Source: Escherichia coli
GTDB lineage: Bacteria; Pseudomonadota; Gammaproteobacteria; Enterobacterales; Enterobacteriaceae
NCBI RefSeq assembly: GCF_003790525.1
Contig: NZ_CP033635.1
DNA length: 64,000 nucleotides
Direction: 5' to 3' (one strand)
The translations under genes were made by a program, and so were the position numbers. A model generated the notes under the pieces. That model was not told the origin of the DNA. It ran no database searches and saw only the letters and a list, made by a program, of their open reading frames with translations. Below are positions 1 to 5,532 of the stretch, one piece after another (position 1 is the stretch's first letter; every line of letters starts with the position of its first letter).

Positions 1-2101
1 CTCCGTAGAGGACGTAATTCAGACGCTGTTTGAAGCCATCGTATTGGTGGTTTGCGTGATGTATTTATTCCTGCAAAACCTGCGTGCCACACTGATTCCG
101 GCGTTAGCTGTCCCCGTCGTTTTGCTGGGCACATTCGGCGTTCTTGCGTTGTTTGGCTATTCGATTAATACCCTGACGTTGTTTGCAATGGTGCTGGCGA
201 TCGGCTTGCTGGTGGACGATGCCATTGTGGTGGTAGAGAACGTCGAACGCATTATGCGTGACGAAGGGTTGCCCGCGCGTGAAGCCACGGAAAAATCAAT
301 GGGCGAGATTTCTGGCGCACTGGTTGCCATTGCGCTGGTGTTGTCAGCCGTATTCCTGCCGATGGCCTTCTTTGGGGAATCTACGGGCGTAATTTATCGT
401 CAGTTCTCCATCACCATCATCTCCGCAATGCTGCTTTCCGTGGTGGTGGCATTGACCTTGACTCCCGCCCTGTGCGGTTCCGTCCTCCAGCATGTTCCGC
501 CACATAAAAAAGGCTTTTTCGGCGCATTTAACCGCTTTTACCGCCGTACTGAAGATAAATATCAGCGAGGCGTAATTTATGTCCTGCGCCGTGCAGCCCG
601 AACGATGGGGCTTTATGTCGTGCTGGGTGGTGGAATGGCCCTGATGATGTGGAAACTGCCCGGCAGTTTCTTACCCACTGAAGACCAGGGCGAAATCATG
701 GTGCAGTACACGCTGCCGGCCGGGGCGACCGCTGCCCGTACAGCAGAAGTGAATCGCCAGATTGTTGACTGGTTCCTGATTAACGAGAAAGCAAATACCG
801 ATGTCATCTTTACCGTTGATGGTTTCAGTTTTAGCGGCAGCGGACAGAACACCGGGATGGCGTTTGTTTCGTTGAAAAACTGGTCTCAACGTAAAGGGGC
901 AGAAAACACCGCCCAGGCTATCGCCCTACGGGCAACCAAAGAGCTGGGCACAATTCGTGATGCGACGGTATTTGCGATGACGCCGCCAGCCGTTGATGGG
1001 CTGGGGCAAAGCAATGGTTTTACGTTTGAATTGTTAGCTAACGGTGGAACCGATCGTGAAACACTGCTGCAAATGCGTAATCAGTTGATAGAAAAAGCGA
1101 ATCAAAGTCCGGAGTTACATTCTGTACGCGCCAATGATTTGCCACAAATGCCGCAATTGCAGGTAGATATTGATAGCAATAAAGCGGTGTCATTAGGGTT
1201 GAGTTTGAATGATGTCACCGACACCCTGTCCAGTGCGTGGGGCGGTACTTATGTGAATGACTTTATTGACCGTGGTCGTGTGAAAAAAGTCTACATTCAG
1301 GGCGACAGCGAATTTCGTTCCGCGCCGTCAGACTTAGGTAAATGGTTTGTGCGCGGTAGCGATAACGCTATGACACCATTCTCTGCTTTTGCGACCACCC
1401 GCTGGCTGTATGGACCGGAAAGACTGGTGCGCTACAACGGCTCGGCAGCCTATGAAATTCAGGGCGAAAACGCGACTGGCTTTAGTTCCGGCGATGCAAT
1501 GACAAAAATGGAGGAACTGGCAAACAGTCTTCCTGCGGGAACAACCTGGGCCTGGAGTGGTTTGTCATTGCAGGAGAAACTGGCCAGCGGTCAGGCATTA
1601 AGTCTGTATGCAGTTTCTATTCTGGTGGTTTTCCTCTGCCTTGCAGCACTGTACGAAAGCTGGTCAGTCCCGTTCTCGGTCATTCTGGTGATCCCTCTGG
1701 GGCTTCTTGGCGCGGCGCTGGCGGCCTGGATGCGTGATTTAAACAACGACGTTTACTTCCAGGTAGCGCTATTAACTACTATCGGCTTGTCATCGAAAAA
1801 CGCCATTCTGATTGTGGAATTTGCTGAAGCGGCGGTTGCAGAGGGCTATTCCTTGAGTCGTGCGGCATTACGCGCGGCGCAGACTCGTTTACGCCCAATC
1901 ATCATGACCTCGCTGGCGTTTATTGCGGGGGTAATGCCGCTGGCGATAGCAACTGGCGCAGGGGCGAACAGCCGCATCGCCATTGGTACGGGCATTATTG
2001 GCGGCACGCTGACCGCTACATTACTGGCCATTTTCTTCGTTCCTCTGTTTTTTGTACTGGTGAAACGTTTGTTTGCCGGTAAACCGCGCCGTCAGGAGTA
2101 A
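1..2101 (+). CDS. RND (HAE1-type) multidrug efflux permease, 5'-truncated by the window edge (C-terminal ~700 aa present)
   Basis: Open frame from nt 2 to TAA at 2099-2101; translation matches AcrB/MexB-like transporters by eye ([14 protein letters not shown] motif, hydrophobic C-terminal TM bundle). Frame runs off the left edge. Confidence 0.85.
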
Positions 2102-2104
2102 GTT

Positions 2105-3505
2105 ATGTTGCGTCGTTCTCTTATTTTTCTGGTGTTGTTGAGTGCGGGATGTGTCTCGCTCGATCCTCACTACAGTACGCCTGAATCCCCAATCCCGGCG
2201 ACCTTGCCGGGAGCACAGGGCCAGGGGAAGGCAATCAGCCATGACTGGCAGCAGGTGATTCACGATCCCCGATTGCAGCAGGTGATTCACGATCCCCGAT
2301 TGCAGCAGGTAGTAACCATTGCACTGAACAGTAACCGCGATGTGCAAAAAGCGATTGCTGATATTGACTCAGCACGGGCGCTCTATGGGCAAACTAATGC
2401 GTCGTTATTTCCGACGGTGAATGCGGCCTTAAGTTCGACTCGCAGTCGTTCGCTGGCGAATGGTACGGGAACAACTGCCGAGGCTGACGGCACGGTGTCC
2501 AGTTATACGTTAGATCTGTTTGGTCGTAATCAGAGTTTATCTCGGGCGGCGCGGGAAACCTGGCTTGCCAGTGAATTTACAGCCCAGAACACTCGTTTAA
2601 CGCTGATTGCTGAAATCAGCACCGCCTGGCTGACACTGGCGGCTGATAACAGCAACCTGGCCCTGGCAAAAGAAACGATGGCCAGTGCAGAAAACTCATT
2701 GAAAATTATCCAGCGCCAGCAACAGGTTGGCACGGCGGCAGCGACAGATGTCAGTGAGGCGATGAGTGTTTATCAGCAAGCGCGCGCCAGCGTTGCCAGC
2801 TATCAGACACAAGTGATGCAGGATAAAAATGCGCTGAACTTACTGGCAGGTACAACGCTTGCGGAAAATCTGCTACCGGGAACACTGGAAAGCCTGCCGG
2901 AACAAATGATAAGTCTGGTTCCTGCGGGAGTATCATCTGATGTTCTGCTGCGTCGCCCGGATATCCAGGAAGCGGAACATAATTTGAAGAGCGCCAATGC
3001 CGATATTGGCGCGGCACGGGCTAACTTTTTCCCGACGATTTCGCTGACTGCCAGTGCCGGTGTTGGCAGTGACGCGTTGTCGTCGTTGTTCAGCCACGGA
3101 ATGCAGATCTGGTCATTTGCGCCATCGGTCACATTACCGCTGTTTACTGGCGGAAGTAATCTGGCGCAGCTTCGTTACGCAGAAGCACAAAAGCGTGGAC
3201 TCATTGCCACCTATGAAAAAACCGTTCAGAGCGCATTTAAAGATGTCGCTAACGCACTGGCGCGGCGGACCACGCTTGAAGAGCAACTGGATGCACAGCG
3301 CCAGTATGTTAAAGCTGAACAACAAACGGTCGATGTTGGCTTGCGTCGCTATCAGGCGGGTGTTGGTGATTACCTGACCGTGTTGACGGCGCAGCGCAGC
3401 TTGTGGAGCGCACAGCAGGAGCTGCTGGCACTGCAACTGACTGATTTTACAAACCGAATCACGCTCTGGCAGTCGCTGGGCGGCGGCATGTCATCACTCA
3501 AGTAA
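2105..3505 (+). CDS. Outer-membrane efflux lipoprotein (OprM/NodT family)
   Basis: 466-aa ORF starting 4 nt after the RND stop, AGGAG upstream; lipoprotein signal with lipobox (LSAGC); OprM-like blocks (DPRLQQV..ALNSNRDV, LLRRPDI.EAEH.L..ANA.IGAARA.FFP, SLW.AQQ); contains 27-bp tandem duplication. Confidence 0.85.
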   Translation: MLRRSLIFLVLLSAGCVSLDPHYSTPESPIPATLPGAQGQGKAISHDWQQVIHDPRLQQVIHDPRLQQVVTIALNSNRDVQKAIADIDSARALYGQTNASLFPTVNAALSSTRSRSLANGTGTTAEADGTVSSYTLDLFGRNQSLSRAARETWLASEFTAQNTRLTLIAEISTAWLTLAADNSNLALAKETMASAENSLKIIQRQQQVGTAAATDVSEAMSVYQQARASVASYQTQVMQDKNALNLLAGTTLAENLLPGTLESLPEQMISLVPAGVSSDVLLRRPDIQEAEHNLKSANADIGAARANFFPTISLTASAGVGSDALSSLFSHGMQIWSFAPSVTLPLFTGGSNLAQLRYAEAQKRGLIATYEKTVQSAFKDVANALARRTTLEEQLDAQRQYVKAEQQTVDVGLRRYQAGVGDYLTVLTAQRSLWSAQQELLALQLTDFTNRITLWQSLGGGMSSLK

Positions 3506-3513
3506 GGAATAAT

Positions 3514-4677
3514 ATGGCTAGAGTCTCTCTTTCATGGGCATTGATTCTTGGTCTTTTAGCCGGTATCGGCCCGATGTGTACCGATCTTTATTTGCCGGCT
3601 TTGCCGGAGATGTCTGAGCAACTGGCGGCAACCACGACCATAACGCAATTAACCCTGACCGCATCACTGATTGGTCTTGGCGTCGGACAACTGTTATTTG
3701 GCCCTCTGAGCGACAAAATAGGGCGTAAACGTCCGTTAATCTTGTCGTTGCTATTGTTTATTGTTTCTTCCATTTTGTGCGCGACAACGAACAATATTTA
3801 CTGGCTGGTGGTCTGGCGTTTTATTCAAGGGATCGCGGGGGCGGGTGGTTCGGTGCTCTCTCGTTCTATTGCTCGTGACAAATATCAGGGAGTAACGTTG
3901 ACCCAGTTTTTTGCGCTGTTAATGACGGTGAATGGCCTGGCACCGGTGTTGTCGCCAGTGCTGGGCGGGTACATTGTTAGCACTTTTGACTGGCGCACTT
4001 TATTCTGGGTAATGGCTGAAATTAGCACCGTACTGTTGCTGGGCTGCCTGTTATTTATTAATGAGACCTTGCCAGAAAATAAAAGGGGCTCATCATTGCT
4101 ATTAACCGGACGAAGCGTGGTGCAGAACCGCCGTTTTATGCGCTTTTGCCTGATTCAAAGTTTTATGCTGGCCGGTTTGTTTGCATATATCGGCTCTTCG
4201 TCGTTCGTGTTGCAGAAGGAATTTGGCTTTAGTCCAATGCAATTTAGCCTGGTGTTTGGCCTTAACGGCATCGGACTTATCATTGCTTCATGGATCTTCT
4301 CGCGCCTGGCGCGACGGATTAACGCGATGACATTGTTGCGAGGTGGCCTGATAGCGGCAATTTTGTGTGCATTGCTCACGGTCTTATGCGCATGGACACA
4401 ATTGCCCATTCCGGCACTGGTGGCATTATTTTTCACCATCGCATTTTGTAGCGGCATCGGCACTGTTGGCGGGGCAGAGGCTATGAGTGCAGTAGGGACG
4501 CAGGAATCTGGAACGGCGTCTGCGTTGATGGGGATGAGCATGTTTGTCTTCGGCGGTATAGCCGCGCCATTGTCGGGAATTGGCGGAGAAACACTGTTAA
4601 AAATGAGTCTGGCAATTACGGTGTGTTATACGCTGGCATTGCTGGTTGCTCTCACCAGAATCGACAATCAAAAGTAA
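3514..4677 (+). CDS. MFS drug-efflux transporter (Bcr/CflA-like)
   Basis: 387-aa ORF, AAGGA RBS, about 12 hydrophobic segments, MFS motif region GPLSDKIGRKRPL; co-directional with the upstream efflux genes. Confidence 0.75.
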   Translation: MARVSLSWALILGLLAGIGPMCTDLYLPALPEMSEQLAATTTITQLTLTASLIGLGVGQLLFGPLSDKIGRKRPLILSLLLFIVSSILCATTNNIYWLVVWRFIQGIAGAGGSVLSRSIARDKYQGVTLTQFFALLMTVNGLAPVLSPVLGGYIVSTFDWRTLFWVMAEISTVLLLGCLLFINETLPENKRGSSLLLTGRSVVQNRRFMRFCLIQSFMLAGLFAYIGSSSFVLQKEFGFSPMQFSLVFGLNGIGLIIASWIFSRLARRINAMTLLRGGLIAAILCALLTVLCAWTQLPIPALVALFFTIAFCSGIGTVGGAEAMSAVGTQESGTASALMGMSMFVFGGIAAPLSGIGGETLLKMSLAITVCYTLALLVALTRIDNQK

Positions 4678-4725: not shown

Positions 4726-5532
4726 CTAACGGTCCTTACGCCACGCATCCGCCGTCAATGCCTCGCCAAAATGACCGGCGATCAGCCGTTTGGTGAGTTC
4801 ATGCAGCGGCGATGCCAGCACATCTGCGGTGCTGCCTCGCTCGACAACCTCGCCCTGATGCATCACCAGCACCTGGTCGCTAATGTGCTTCATCATTCCG
4901 ATATGCTGGGTAACATAAATATACGAAATGCCCTGTTTTTCCTGTAACTCCAGCATCAGGTTAATCAACTGCGAACGCATCGACATATCCAGTGAGGCGA
5001 GGGCTTCATCGGCAATAATGACTTTTGGGCGCAATATCAGCGCGCGCGCCAGACCCAGACGCTGTTTTTGCCCGGGTGCCAACATATGCGGATAGTAACT
5101 GACGTGATCCGGTAGCAGCCCAACCATACGCATCGTTTCAATAATCTGTTTGCGACGCTGTTCCGGTTCCAGATCGGTGTTCAGACGCAGTGGAAAATCC
5201 AGAATTTGCGAGATACGTTGACGGGGATTCAACGAGGTCGAAGGATCCTGAAAAATCATGCGAATACGCTGACTGCGGAAGGAATAATCGCCAAAATGCA
5301 GCGGATGATCGTCAATCAATAACTCGCCGCTGGTAGGTTCTATCATTCCCGCCAGCATTTTTGCCAGCGTGGATTTACCCGAACCATTCTCGCCAATAAT
5401 CGCCAGTGTCTGGCCTTCACGTAGCGTAAAGCTCAAGGGTTTTACCGCTTCTACGGTCTGACGACGAAACCAACCGGTCCGGTAGCGGAACGTTTTACTT
5501 AAATTACGCACTTCAAGCAGCGTTTCGATCAT
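4726..5532 (-). CDS. sapF: ABC transporter ATP-binding protein SapF
   Basis: 268-aa ORF, Walker A GENGSGKST, ABC signature; recognised as E. coli SapF; last gene of sapABCDF order. Confidence 0.92.
   Translation of the reverse strand: MIETLLEVRNLSKTFRYRTGWFRRQTVEAVKPLSFTLREGQTLAIIGENGSGKSTLAKMLAGMIEPTSGELLIDDHPLHFGDYSFRSQRIRMIFQDPSTSLNPRQRISQILDFPLRLNTDLEPEQRRKQIIETMRMVGLLPDHVSYYPHMLAPGQKQRLGLARALILRPKVIIADEALASLDMSMRSQLINLMLELQEKQGISYIYVTQHIGMMKHISDQVLVMHQGEVVERGSTADVLASPLHELTKRLIAGHFGEALTADAWRKDR

What the first reader, a model, noticed from the sequence alone, without database searches (positions are those of the whole stretch)
2248..2310. Perfect 27-bp in-frame tandem duplication in the outer-membrane factor gene
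CAGGTGATTCACGATCCCCGATTGCAG occurs twice back to back (2252-2278 and 2279-2305), duplicating nine residues (QVIHDPRLQ) in the conserved N-terminal OprM-family segment. A perfect copy suggests a recent slippage event, a phase-variable allele or an assembly artefact; it may alter the N-terminal region just after the lipidation site.
Basis: seen in the sequence. Interest (0 to 1): 0.45.

Follow-up and report, generated by a model that had tools for sequence, protein, structure and literature searches.

The report
Slippage-made 27-bp duplication in eefC
The perfect 27-base in-frame duplication is real: it is a replication-slippage product in the efflux-channel gene eefC of the E. coli ST354 lineage, it has arisen independently at least twice and varies from one to three copies, and it is an ordinary kind of mutation with no shown effect on function.

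Summary
Window 2248-2310 is a 100% perfect period-27 array of 2.33 copies inside eefC (2105-3505), the outer-membrane factor of the eefRABCD efflux operon of E. coli.

- **Ancestral state.** The single-copy gene carries a 9-bp direct repeat, GCAGCAGGT, on both sides of an 18-bp spacer. This is a classic slipped-strand substrate, and it is the only direct repeat of 9 bp or more within 60 nt in the gene.
- **Distribution.** Of 2043 complete E. coli genomes with eefC, 2018 or more have one copy. Twenty-two of the 24 genomes of the window's lineage (ST354, SMS-3-5-like) have two.
- **Variation within the lineage.** SMS-3-5 and SBF22 carry the same allele with one copy. One draft assembly carries it with three.
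- **Independent origin.** O157:H7 strain LSU61 has the same duplication on the O157 allele, and both copies carry the O157-specific base.
- **Not an artefact, not phase variation.** The exact protein occurs in 1085 blocks of a public collection. All states stay in frame.
- **Published outlier explained.** The duplication accounts exactly for the 97.07% eefC identity reported for ST354.
- **Protein effect.** Nine residues are inserted between a Trp found in 94% of relatives and helix H1, where spacing is otherwise fixed. AlphaFold puts the second copy in the native position, with Leu57 replacing Trp48.

Functional effect is untested. Interest is low.

The parts
1..2101 (+). 3' part of eefB (RND permease); the gene runs off the window's left edge
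   Evidence: NCBIfam TIGR00915 match, 1010 bits. Annotated as an RND permease in strain 2D and SMS-3-5.
2105..3505 (+). eefC, outer-membrane factor lipoprotein, 466 aa (two-copy allele, WP_023146387.1)
   Evidence: ORF list. TIGR01845 match at 362.6 bits against a cut-off of 210. OprM 1wp1 at E=3e-100. Named eefC in the Sakai record.
2105..2152 (+). Signal peptide and lipobox ending in Cys16 (TGT 2150-2152)
   Evidence: Sequence MLRRSLIFLVLLSAGC. C16 is invariant in 117 aligned family members.
2248..2310 (+). Whole period-27 repeat array, 2.33 copies, 100% identical
2252..2278 (+).
   Evidence: translation.
2279..2305 (+). Copy 2; encodes QVIHDPRLQ, residues 59-67. AlphaFold places it in the native structural position.
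2248..2256 (+). GCAGCAGGT, first occurrence of the 9-bp microhomology
2275..2283 (+). GCAGCAGGT, second occurrence, at the junction of the two copies
2302..2310 (+). GCAGCAGGT, third occurrence. In single-copy alleles only two occurrences exist, 27 nt apart.
3514..4677 (+). eefD, Bcr/CflA-type MFS transporter, last gene of the operon
4726..5532 (-). sapF, the conserved right-hand neighbour that fixes the chromosomal position of the eef island (fabI-eefRABCD-sapF)

Best explanation
The 27-bp repeat is a genuine, evolutionarily recent in-frame tandem duplication in eefC. It was produced by slipped-strand mispairing between two copies of the 9-mer GCAGCAGGT, which lie 27 nt apart in every single-copy E. 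coli eefC allele.

Inferred mechanism: during replication the nascent 3' end, having copied the downstream 9-mer, re-paired with the upstream one and copied the 27 nt again. The resulting 63-nt perfect array is a better slippage substrate than the original. This explains the further change to three copies, and possibly contraction back to one, within the same clone.

The two-copy allele rose to near-fixation in the ST354 lineage, to which the window belongs. I think hitch-hiking is the most likely cause (inferred).

At the protein level, nine residues are inserted between the conserved Trp48 and helix H1 of the periplasmic equatorial domain. The second copy most likely occupies the native position. 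The first copy then lengthens the already length-variable N-terminal arm, and Leu57 replaces Trp48. The protein is probably still functional or only mildly affected. This last step is inferred from models and was not tested.
For: **Real and perfect.**

**Ancestral single copy.**
- 2018 of 2043 eefC-bearing complete genomes show the 27-nt gap relative to the window.
- Orthologues from E. albertii, Kluyvera, Enterobacter, Salmonella, Klebsiella and others are single-copy.

**Slippage substrate.**
- The 9-bp direct repeat flanks the unit in all eight alleles examined.
- It is the only direct repeat of 9 bp or more within 60 nt in the gene.

**Independent recurrence.** The LSU61 allele equals the Sakai allele plus the duplication, with 0 other SNPs. 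It differs from the window allele by 32 SNPs, and both copies carry the O157 base C.

**Same clone, three states.**
- SMS-3-5 and SBF22 carry the window allele minus exactly 27 nt, with flanks about 100% identical over 25 kb.
- GCA_013078605.1 carries three copies with 0 SNPs.

**Abundance.** Twenty-two complete genomes, 1085 collection blocks and one metagenome contig.

**Lineage and published data.**
- SMS-3-5 is ST354 (PMC9174282).
- The window allele has 14 SNPs against ATCC 25922, which is 98.98% identity, or 97.07% if the 27 nt count as a gap. That is exactly the ST354 eefC value in Table 1 of PMC12817139.

**Tolerance.**
- The Cys-to-Trp arm length ranges from 31 to 50 residues in the family. 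The duplicated form would give 41.
- AlphaFold keeps H57-60/H64-76/H78-99 in the two-copy model, equivalent to H48-51/H55-67/H69-90 in the single-copy model, with pLDDT 94 from residue 61 onward.
- Leu, Val, Tyr or Phe occur naturally at the Trp column.
- eefR, eefA, eefB and eefD are intact in strain 2D.

**Ordinary event type.** M172-1 has a perfect 135-bp in-frame duplication in ycjF.
Against: - The insertion falls in a segment whose length is otherwise fixed. The conserved Trp to the NRD motif is 20 residues in 105 of 106 family representatives and 29 only here. Trp is present in 109 of 116. A functional cost or change therefore cannot be excluded.
- AlphaFold is not a reliable judge of destabilising insertions. 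It gives pLDDT below 50 for residues 44-52.
- Near-fixation in a globally successful clone with an otherwise intact operon could reflect selection rather than drift.
- The order of events inside ST354 is unresolved: SMS-3-5 and SBF22 could be basal or revertants. All SNPs in 50 kb are singletons.
- The three-copy allele rests on a single draft assembly.
- No reads for the window's own assembly could be inspected.
Confidence: 0.78

Rival explanations
1. Assembly artefact: the second copy is a mis-assembly of a single-copy gene.
For: Only the general point that short tandem repeats can be mis-assembled. The window's own reads were not available.
Against: - Twenty-two independently sequenced complete genomes, from human, chicken, dog, pangolin and river water in several countries, have the identical 1401-bp gene.
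- The exact 466-aa protein is indexed in 1085 blocks of public assemblies and in one metagenome contig.
- LSU61 carries it in both its draft (EFX31192.1) and complete (QKA26998.1) records.
- A 54-nt array is shorter than any modern read.
Confidence: 0.02
2. Contingency or phase-variable locus: copy number switches at high frequency to turn EefC on or off, or to vary an antigen.
For: One, two and three copies of the same allele exist within one clone. The event recurred in O157. A perfect 63-nt array is intrinsically unstable.
Against: - The unit is 27 nt, or 9 codons, so every state is in frame and none makes a null.
- Twenty-two of 24 lineage genomes from diverse sources have exactly two copies. 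No three-copy allele occurs among 5426 complete genomes.
- By homology to OprM and by the published EefC model, the site lies in the periplasmic equatorial domain (P31-R69), not in a surface loop.
- Duplicated versions of eight other common alleles are absent from a 15-billion-protein collection.
Confidence: 0.05
3. Adaptive variant: the nine-residue insertion changes EefC assembly, anchoring or gating in a way that was positively selected in ST354.
For: - It is near-fixed in a successful multi-host clone. The mean eefC identity of 237 ST354 assemblies equals the two-copy value.
- The operon is otherwise intact.
- It hits a conserved, length-invariant motif, so an effect is plausible.
- The same change recurred in a second lineage.
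Against: - Recurrence is explained by the mutational hotspot alone.
- In LSU61 the partner gene eefB is frameshifted, and another two-copy strain has a split eefB. There the duplication sits in a decaying operon.
- eefABC deletion gave no antimicrobial-susceptibility phenotype in ATCC 25922 (PMC12817139), so there is no known trait for selection to act on.
- SMS-3-5 and SBF22 persist with one copy.
Confidence: 0.12
4. Loss-of-function lesion: the insertion displaces the conserved Trp and disables EefC, an early step of pseudogenisation of a dispensable pump.
For: - Fixed Trp-to-NRD spacing is broken, and pLDDT is low around residues 44-52.
- eefC is the most variable gene of the operon (PMC12817139).
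- Other lesions are seen in this gene or operon: an IS1 insertion in U15A, a 15-aa duplication in P0001 and an 11-aa deletion in E. albertii P0008, and eefB frameshifts.
Against: - The second copy regenerates the full motif with a hydrophobic Leu at the Trp position, which is seen naturally in relatives.
- The model retains the native fold from residue 57 on.
- No further inactivating mutations have accumulated in eefC or its neighbours across 22 complete genomes.
Confidence: 0.1

Closest known systems
EefC of E. coli ATCC 25922 / SMS-3-5 (eefRABCD operon; Pugh et al. 2026, PMC12817139) and eefC of Klebsiella aerogenes
   Same: Same gene, same fabI-eefRABCD-sapF position and same 457-aa backbone. 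The window allele minus 27 nt is identical to the SMS-3-5 gene and 98.98% identical to ATCC 25922.
   Different: It carries nine extra residues (QVIHDPRLQ) after residue 58. The paper lists ST354 eefC as the least conserved entry (97.07%) without mentioning a duplication. That value is exactly what the duplication produces.
OprM of Pseudomonas aeruginosa (PDB 1wp1) and the NodT/OprM/CusC branch of outer-membrane factors
   Same: E=3e-100 over the full length. It shares the lipidated N-terminal Cys, the long N-terminal arm and the W-x2-[FV]-[FVI]-x-D-x2-L motif preceding the NRD motif.
   Different: Every relative examined has 20 residues from the Trp to the Asn of NRD. The window protein has 29.
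Slipped-strand (microhomology-mediated) tandem duplications and deletions between short direct repeats (own knowledge: Albertini et al. 1982; Lovett 2004)
   Same: Perfect head-to-tail copies, breakpoints within a short direct repeat (9 bp), recurrence at identical breakpoints, and later copy-number change.
   Different: Nothing mechanistically different was found. No hairpin potential accompanies the repeat (z-scores 0.23, -0.71 and 0.12).
Lineage-fixed short in-frame duplications in outer-membrane channels, such as the OmpK36 loop-3 GD/TD insertion of Klebsiella pneumoniae clones (from memory, not checked here)
   Same: A small in-frame tandem duplication in an outer-membrane channel protein that marks a successful clone.
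   Different: The OmpK36 insertion narrows the pore and has a proven resistance phenotype. The eefC duplication is periplasmic, lies outside the channel lumen and has no known phenotype.
Intragenic VNTR loci of E. coli used for MLVA typing, and phase-variable contingency loci of Neisseria and Haemophilus (own knowledge)
   Same: Copy number of an intragenic tandem repeat differs among close relatives, here 1, 2 or 3.
   Different: Only one to three copies occur, always in frame. There is no evidence of rapid switching, and the site is not surface-exposed.

Membership tests
Outer-membrane factor, NodT/OprM family (TIGR01845) | Full-length match to the family profile above the curated cut-off | tested here: met
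   362.6 bits against a cut-off of 210.05, residues 9-461. OprM at E=3e-100.
Outer-membrane factor, NodT/OprM family (TIGR01845) | N-terminal signal peptide with a lipobox Cys | tested here: met
   The sequence is LLSAGC, and C16 is invariant in the 117-sequence alignment.
Outer-membrane factor, NodT/OprM family (TIGR01845) | Encoded next to an RND permease and a periplasmic adaptor | tested here: met
   The eefR-eefA-eefB-eefC-eefD gene order is seen in the identical locus of strain 2D. The 3' end of eefB lies in the window.
Outer-membrane factor, NodT/OprM family (TIGR01845) | Fixed spacing of 20 residues between the conserved Trp and the NRD motif | tested here: not met
   It is 29 residues here and 20 in 105 of 106 relatives. 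This is a derived deviation caused by the duplication, not evidence against homology.
Outer-membrane factor, NodT/OprM family (TIGR01845) | Forms a trimeric beta-barrel/alpha-barrel channel in the outer membrane | not testable with these tools
   Only monomer AlphaFold models were made (pTM 0.84 and 0.83). Their helix and strand order matches the family.
Slipped-strand tandem duplication | Head-to-tail identical copies with no intervening bases | tested here: met
Slipped-strand tandem duplication | A short direct repeat at both ends of the unit in the unduplicated allele | tested here: met
   GCAGCAGGT occurs twice, 27 nt apart, in Sakai, ATCC 25922, ST131, DSM 30083, O145, TCM3e1 and others.
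Slipped-strand tandem duplication | The single-copy state is ancestral | tested here: met
   At least 2018 E. coli genomes and all other genera examined are single-copy.
Slipped-strand tandem duplication | Independent recurrence or copy-number change at the same breakpoints | tested here: met
   LSU61 on the O157 allele. A three-copy ST354-type allele in L020, resting on one record only.
Phase-variable contingency locus | Repeat-number change shifts the reading frame or promoter spacing (ON/OFF) | tested here: not met
   The unit is 27 nt. The 1x, 2x and 3x forms all encode full-length proteins of 457, 466 and 475 aa.
Phase-variable contingency locus | High-frequency switching within a clone | tested here: inconclusive
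   Twenty-two of 24 lineage genomes have 2x and two have 1x. One draft has 3x against 1085 collection blocks with 2x. No population-level read data were available.
Phase-variable contingency locus | Affects a surface-exposed or otherwise selectable epitope | tested here: not met
   The site maps to the N-terminal tail/H1 of the periplasmic equatorial domain, by OprM alignment and by the published EefC model, P31-R69.

The most novel reading that the evidence does not exclude
The eefC repeat is a functional 'length switch'. Slippage among one, two and three copies would alter the N-terminal arm and equatorial domain of EefC, and the two-copy state would have been positively selected in ST354 because it changes pump assembly or activity in the host. 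This would give the still function-less EefABC system a naturally occurring allelic series for finding its role.
Probability: 0.07. Interest if true: 0.5.

Novelty: new member of a known kind. Interest (0 to 1): 0.2.

Why it matters
- **Lineage marker.** It is a clean marker for ST354, scorable by PCR as a 27-bp size difference. It is also a small worked example of a mutational hotspot, with the same 27-bp event in two distant E. coli lineages.
- **Published anomaly.** It fully explains why eefC of ST354 stands out as the least conserved entry in the 2026 EefABC survey. That figure reflects an indel, not elevated substitution.
- **Natural allelic series.** Isolates provide 1x, 2x and 3x EefC variants at a conserved, length-invariant motif of OprM-type channels. 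These could be used to test how much the N-terminal arm and equatorial domain tolerate.

Beyond that it is an ordinary polymorphism, with no demonstrated consequence for resistance or virulence.

Tried and rejected
1. **Three-copy query against complete genomes.** Megablast split single-copy hits into two pieces, so the identity bands were not usable. The search showed only that no complete genome matches three copies end to end.
2. **Order of events inside ST354.** I compared 50 kb around the locus in SMS-3-5, SBF22, M172-1, KFu014, the window and the outgroup TCM3e1. Every within-lineage SNP was a singleton, so it is unresolved whether the single-copy strains are basal or revertants.
3. **Further independent events.** I looked up duplicated versions of eight other eefC alleles and a three-copy O157 allele by exact sequence. 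None was present. Only the three-copy ST354-type allele was found.
4. **Metagenome scan for the two-unit pattern.** It returned one contig, carrying the ST354-type allele.
5. **Hairpin-assisted slippage.** DNA folding of both strands and of the single-copy form gave z-scores of 0.23, -0.71 and 0.12, so there is no structure.
6. **Literature.** No paper in the library mentions a duplication in eefC.
7. **Recombinational import of the LSU61 duplication from ST354.** Rejected, because both LSU61 copies and the flanks carry O157-specific bases.
8. **The antisense 108-aa ORF 2021-2347.** Treated as spurious, since it overlaps a well-supported gene.

Full report
**1. The observation**

Window 2248-2310 is a perfect period-27 tandem array of 2.33 copies. 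Tandem Repeats Finder scores it 126 with 100% matches, far above the other eight rows for the 64-kb window. String comparison confirms that 2252-2278 equals 2279-2305 (CAGGTGATTCACGATCCCCGATTGCAG), and that identity at lag 27 runs from 2248 to 2283.

The array lies in the ORF 2105-3505 and starts 147 nt after the ATG. It therefore duplicates nine codons in frame: QVIHDPRLQ at residues 50-58 and 59-67. Thirty-six consecutive matches at one lag cannot be chance.

**2. The gene and the organism**

- The ORF matches the NodT-type outer-membrane factor profile TIGR01845 at 362.6 bits, against a cut-off of 210.
- It matches OprM (PDB 1wp1) at E=3e-100 over its full length.
- It follows the 3' end of an RND permease gene and precedes a Bcr/CflA MFS transporter gene and sapF.
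- In E. coli strain 2D the 1401-bp gene is 100% identical. The neighbourhood there is fabI, a TetR regulator, an adaptor, the RND permease, this gene, the MFS gene and sapFDCBA.
- The O157:H7 Sakai record names the gene eefC and its neighbour eefD.

This is the eefRABCD operon described by Pugh et al. 2026 (PMC12817139). According to that paper it is present in phylogroups B2, D, E, F and G, is not a demonstrable drug transporter, and has unknown function.

Twenty-five kilobases of flank are essentially identical to E. coli SMS-3-5 and 23 other complete genomes; the next best match is 99.3%. SMS-3-5 is ST354 (PMC9174282).

**3. Distribution**

eefC is present in 2043 of 5426 complete E. coli genomes. 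A 261-nt probe across the site gave three classes:

- 22 genomes match at 100%.
- One genome (O157:H7 LSU61) matches at 96.9% without a gap.
- 2018 genomes match at 80-90% identity, because of a 27-nt gap.

The 22 two-copy genomes come from human, chicken, dog, pangolin and river-water sources. All belong to the 24-genome SMS-3-5-like group. The other two members, SMS-3-5 and SBF22, carry exactly the window's gene minus one 27-nt unit, with no other difference.

No complete genome has three copies. An exact-sequence look-up of a constructed three-copy protein did find HAJ7615980.1 in draft assembly GCA_013078605.1. Its DNA shows three perfect units and 0 SNPs relative to the window allele.

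The two-copy protein itself is indexed in 1085 blocks of the public collection, mostly on 50-200-kb contigs. One metagenome contig also carries it. An assembly artefact is therefore excluded as a general explanation.

**4. Independent origin**

LSU61's eefC equals the Sakai allele plus the 27-nt duplication, with 0 other SNPs. It differs from the window allele at 32 sites. Both of its copies carry the O157-type C where the window has T (GATCCAC against GATTCAC). The same duplication, with identical breakpoints, therefore arose at least twice.

Duplicated versions of eight other alleles, and a three-copy O157 version, are absent from the 15-billion-protein collection. The event is recurrent but rare.

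**5. Mechanism**

In every single-copy allele examined, the 9-mer GCAGCAGGT occurs twice, 27 nt apart, on either side of an 18-nt spacer. In the O157-type alleles (Sakai, O145, 266917_2) the match extends to 10 nt. It is the only direct repeat of 9 nt or more within 60 nt in the single-copy gene. This is the textbook substrate for slipped-strand mispairing (own knowledge: Albertini et al. 1982; Lovett 2004).

The breakpoints fall within the 9-mer. No hairpin accompanies it: DNA folding z-scores are 0.23, -0.71 and 0.12. Once duplicated, the 63-nt perfect array should slip more readily, which fits the one-, two- and three-copy series within one clone.

Shown here:
- the flanking microhomology;
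- the ancestral single-copy state;
- the recurrence;
- the copy-number series.

Inferred:
- that replication slippage, rather than unequal recombination, made the first event;
- the direction of the 1x/2x changes within ST354.

A 50-kb comparison of five lineage sequences and an outgroup contained only singleton SNPs, so that direction could not be resolved.

**6. A published anomaly explained**

Table 1 of PMC12817139 gives mean eefC identity to ATCC 25922 of 97.07% for ST354. This is the lowest value in the table and is singled out in the text, while the ST354 values for eefB and eefD are 99.52% and 99.66%. The paper's supplement lists 237 ST354 assemblies.

The window allele differs from ATCC 25922 by 14 SNPs, which is 98.98% identity. 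Counting the 27 extra bases as alignment columns gives 1360/1401 = 97.07%. The outlier is therefore the duplication, and nearly all of those ST354 assemblies must carry two copies. The word 'duplication' does not occur in the paper or in its supplement as held. No other paper in the library links eefC with a duplication in this sense.

**7. Consequence for the protein**

I aligned 116 family representatives of 33-98% identity, drawn from searches of 5.8 and 1.8 billion proteins.

- The lipid Cys is invariant.
- Trp48 is present in 109 of 116 sequences, Asp54 in 94 and Leu57 in 112.
- The distance from the Trp to the Asn of the NRD motif is 20 residues in 105 of 106 sequences, and 29 only in the window protein.
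- The Cys-to-Trp arm, by contrast, varies from 31 to 50 residues.

The insertion is thus not in the length-variable arm but in a length-invariant motif of the equatorial domain, which is P31-R69 in the published EefC model.

Because the unit is duplicated, the second copy regenerates the whole motif. Leu57 then sits at the Trp position, and the arm becomes 41 residues, which is within the natural range. AlphaFold2 agrees with this register:

| Model | Helices near the site | pLDDT near the site |
|---|---|---|
| Single-copy | H48-51, H55-67, H69-90 | 75 for residues 41-50; 97 for residues 51-60 |
| Two-copy | H57-60, H64-76, H78-99 | below 50 for residues 44-52; 94 from residue 61 |

Leu, Val, Tyr or Phe occur naturally at the Trp column in a few relatives.

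In solved tripartite pumps the adaptor contacts the periplasmic tip of the channel, not the equatorial domain (own knowledge). I therefore think the protein is most likely tolerated. This is inference from models, and a mild defect or altered assembly is not excluded.

**8. Context of relaxed or ordinary variation**

Pugh et al. describe eefC as the most variable gene of the operon. Other lesions seen while working:

- a 15-residue in-frame duplication in one E. coli EefC, P0001, with no junction microhomology;
- an 11-residue deletion in an E. albertii EefC;
- an IS1 insertion in eefC of U15A;
- a frameshifted eefB in LSU61, and a split eefB in another two-copy strain.

A perfect 135-bp in-frame duplication in ycjF of M172-1 shows that events of this kind are commonplace in E. 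coli genomes.

**9. Verdict**

- 'Recent slippage' is right, and is now supported mechanistically and phylogenetically.
- 'Assembly artefact' is wrong.
- 'Phase-variable' is right only in that copy number varies. There is no on/off switch, and no surface epitope is involved.

This is a new instance of a well-known kind of mutation. It is useful as an ST354 marker and as an explanation of a published outlier, but it has no demonstrated functional effect.

- Interest: 0.2.
- Most novel reading not excluded: the copy-number series tunes EefC and was selected in ST354. Probability about 0.07.

Noticed in passing
window 2801-2845 (equivalent position in protein P0001, UPI00069C5071): Another E. coli EefC (472 aa) carries a different in-frame tandem duplication of 15 residues, YQTQVMQDKNALNLL, in helix H4. 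The corresponding DNA in the window shows no junction microhomology.
   Followed up: partly
window 2594-2656 (equivalent position in E. albertii protein P0008): One E. albertii EefC (446 aa) lacks 11 residues (AEISTAWLTLA) between imperfect direct repeats that include GCTGA. It looks like a slippage deletion in the same gene.
   Followed up: partly
L004 2680-3449 (E. coli U15A); roughly window 2355: An IS1A element interrupts eefC about 225 nt into the gene, so the gene is a pseudogene in this urinary isolate.
   Followed up: no
L002 1-2452 (O157:H7 LSU61) and L022 1-1497 (CP090342.1): eefB is annotated as frameshifted in LSU61. It is split into 591- and 450-aa products in another two-copy strain, by a 1-bp change in a G run near window 721. 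This could be real decay of the pump or a homopolymer sequencing error.
   Followed up: partly
window 378, 16388, 26067, 33020, 36678: The window carries five private SNPs in its first 41 kb. The four other lineage genomes compared and the outgroup all have the other base, and those lineage genomes have only 0-2 private SNPs each. Three are non-synonymous: EefB G462E, YcjO S21C and PgmB A30V.
   Followed up: partly
L010 47125-48321 (E. coli M172-1 ycjF); window about 38682: A perfect 135-bp in-frame tandem duplication in ycjF of the pangolin isolate M172-1. The first copy starts at gene nt 401, and the gene is annotated as a 1197-bp TIGR01620 protein.
   Followed up: yes
L014 and L019 (ST131 isolate 86; AR_0081): The single-copy EefC protein of ST354 strain SMS-3-5 (WP_000946226.1) is identical in amino-acid sequence to that of ST131, although the genes differ by 6 SNPs. 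Protein-level counts of the single-copy allele therefore cannot be assigned to one lineage.
   Followed up: partly
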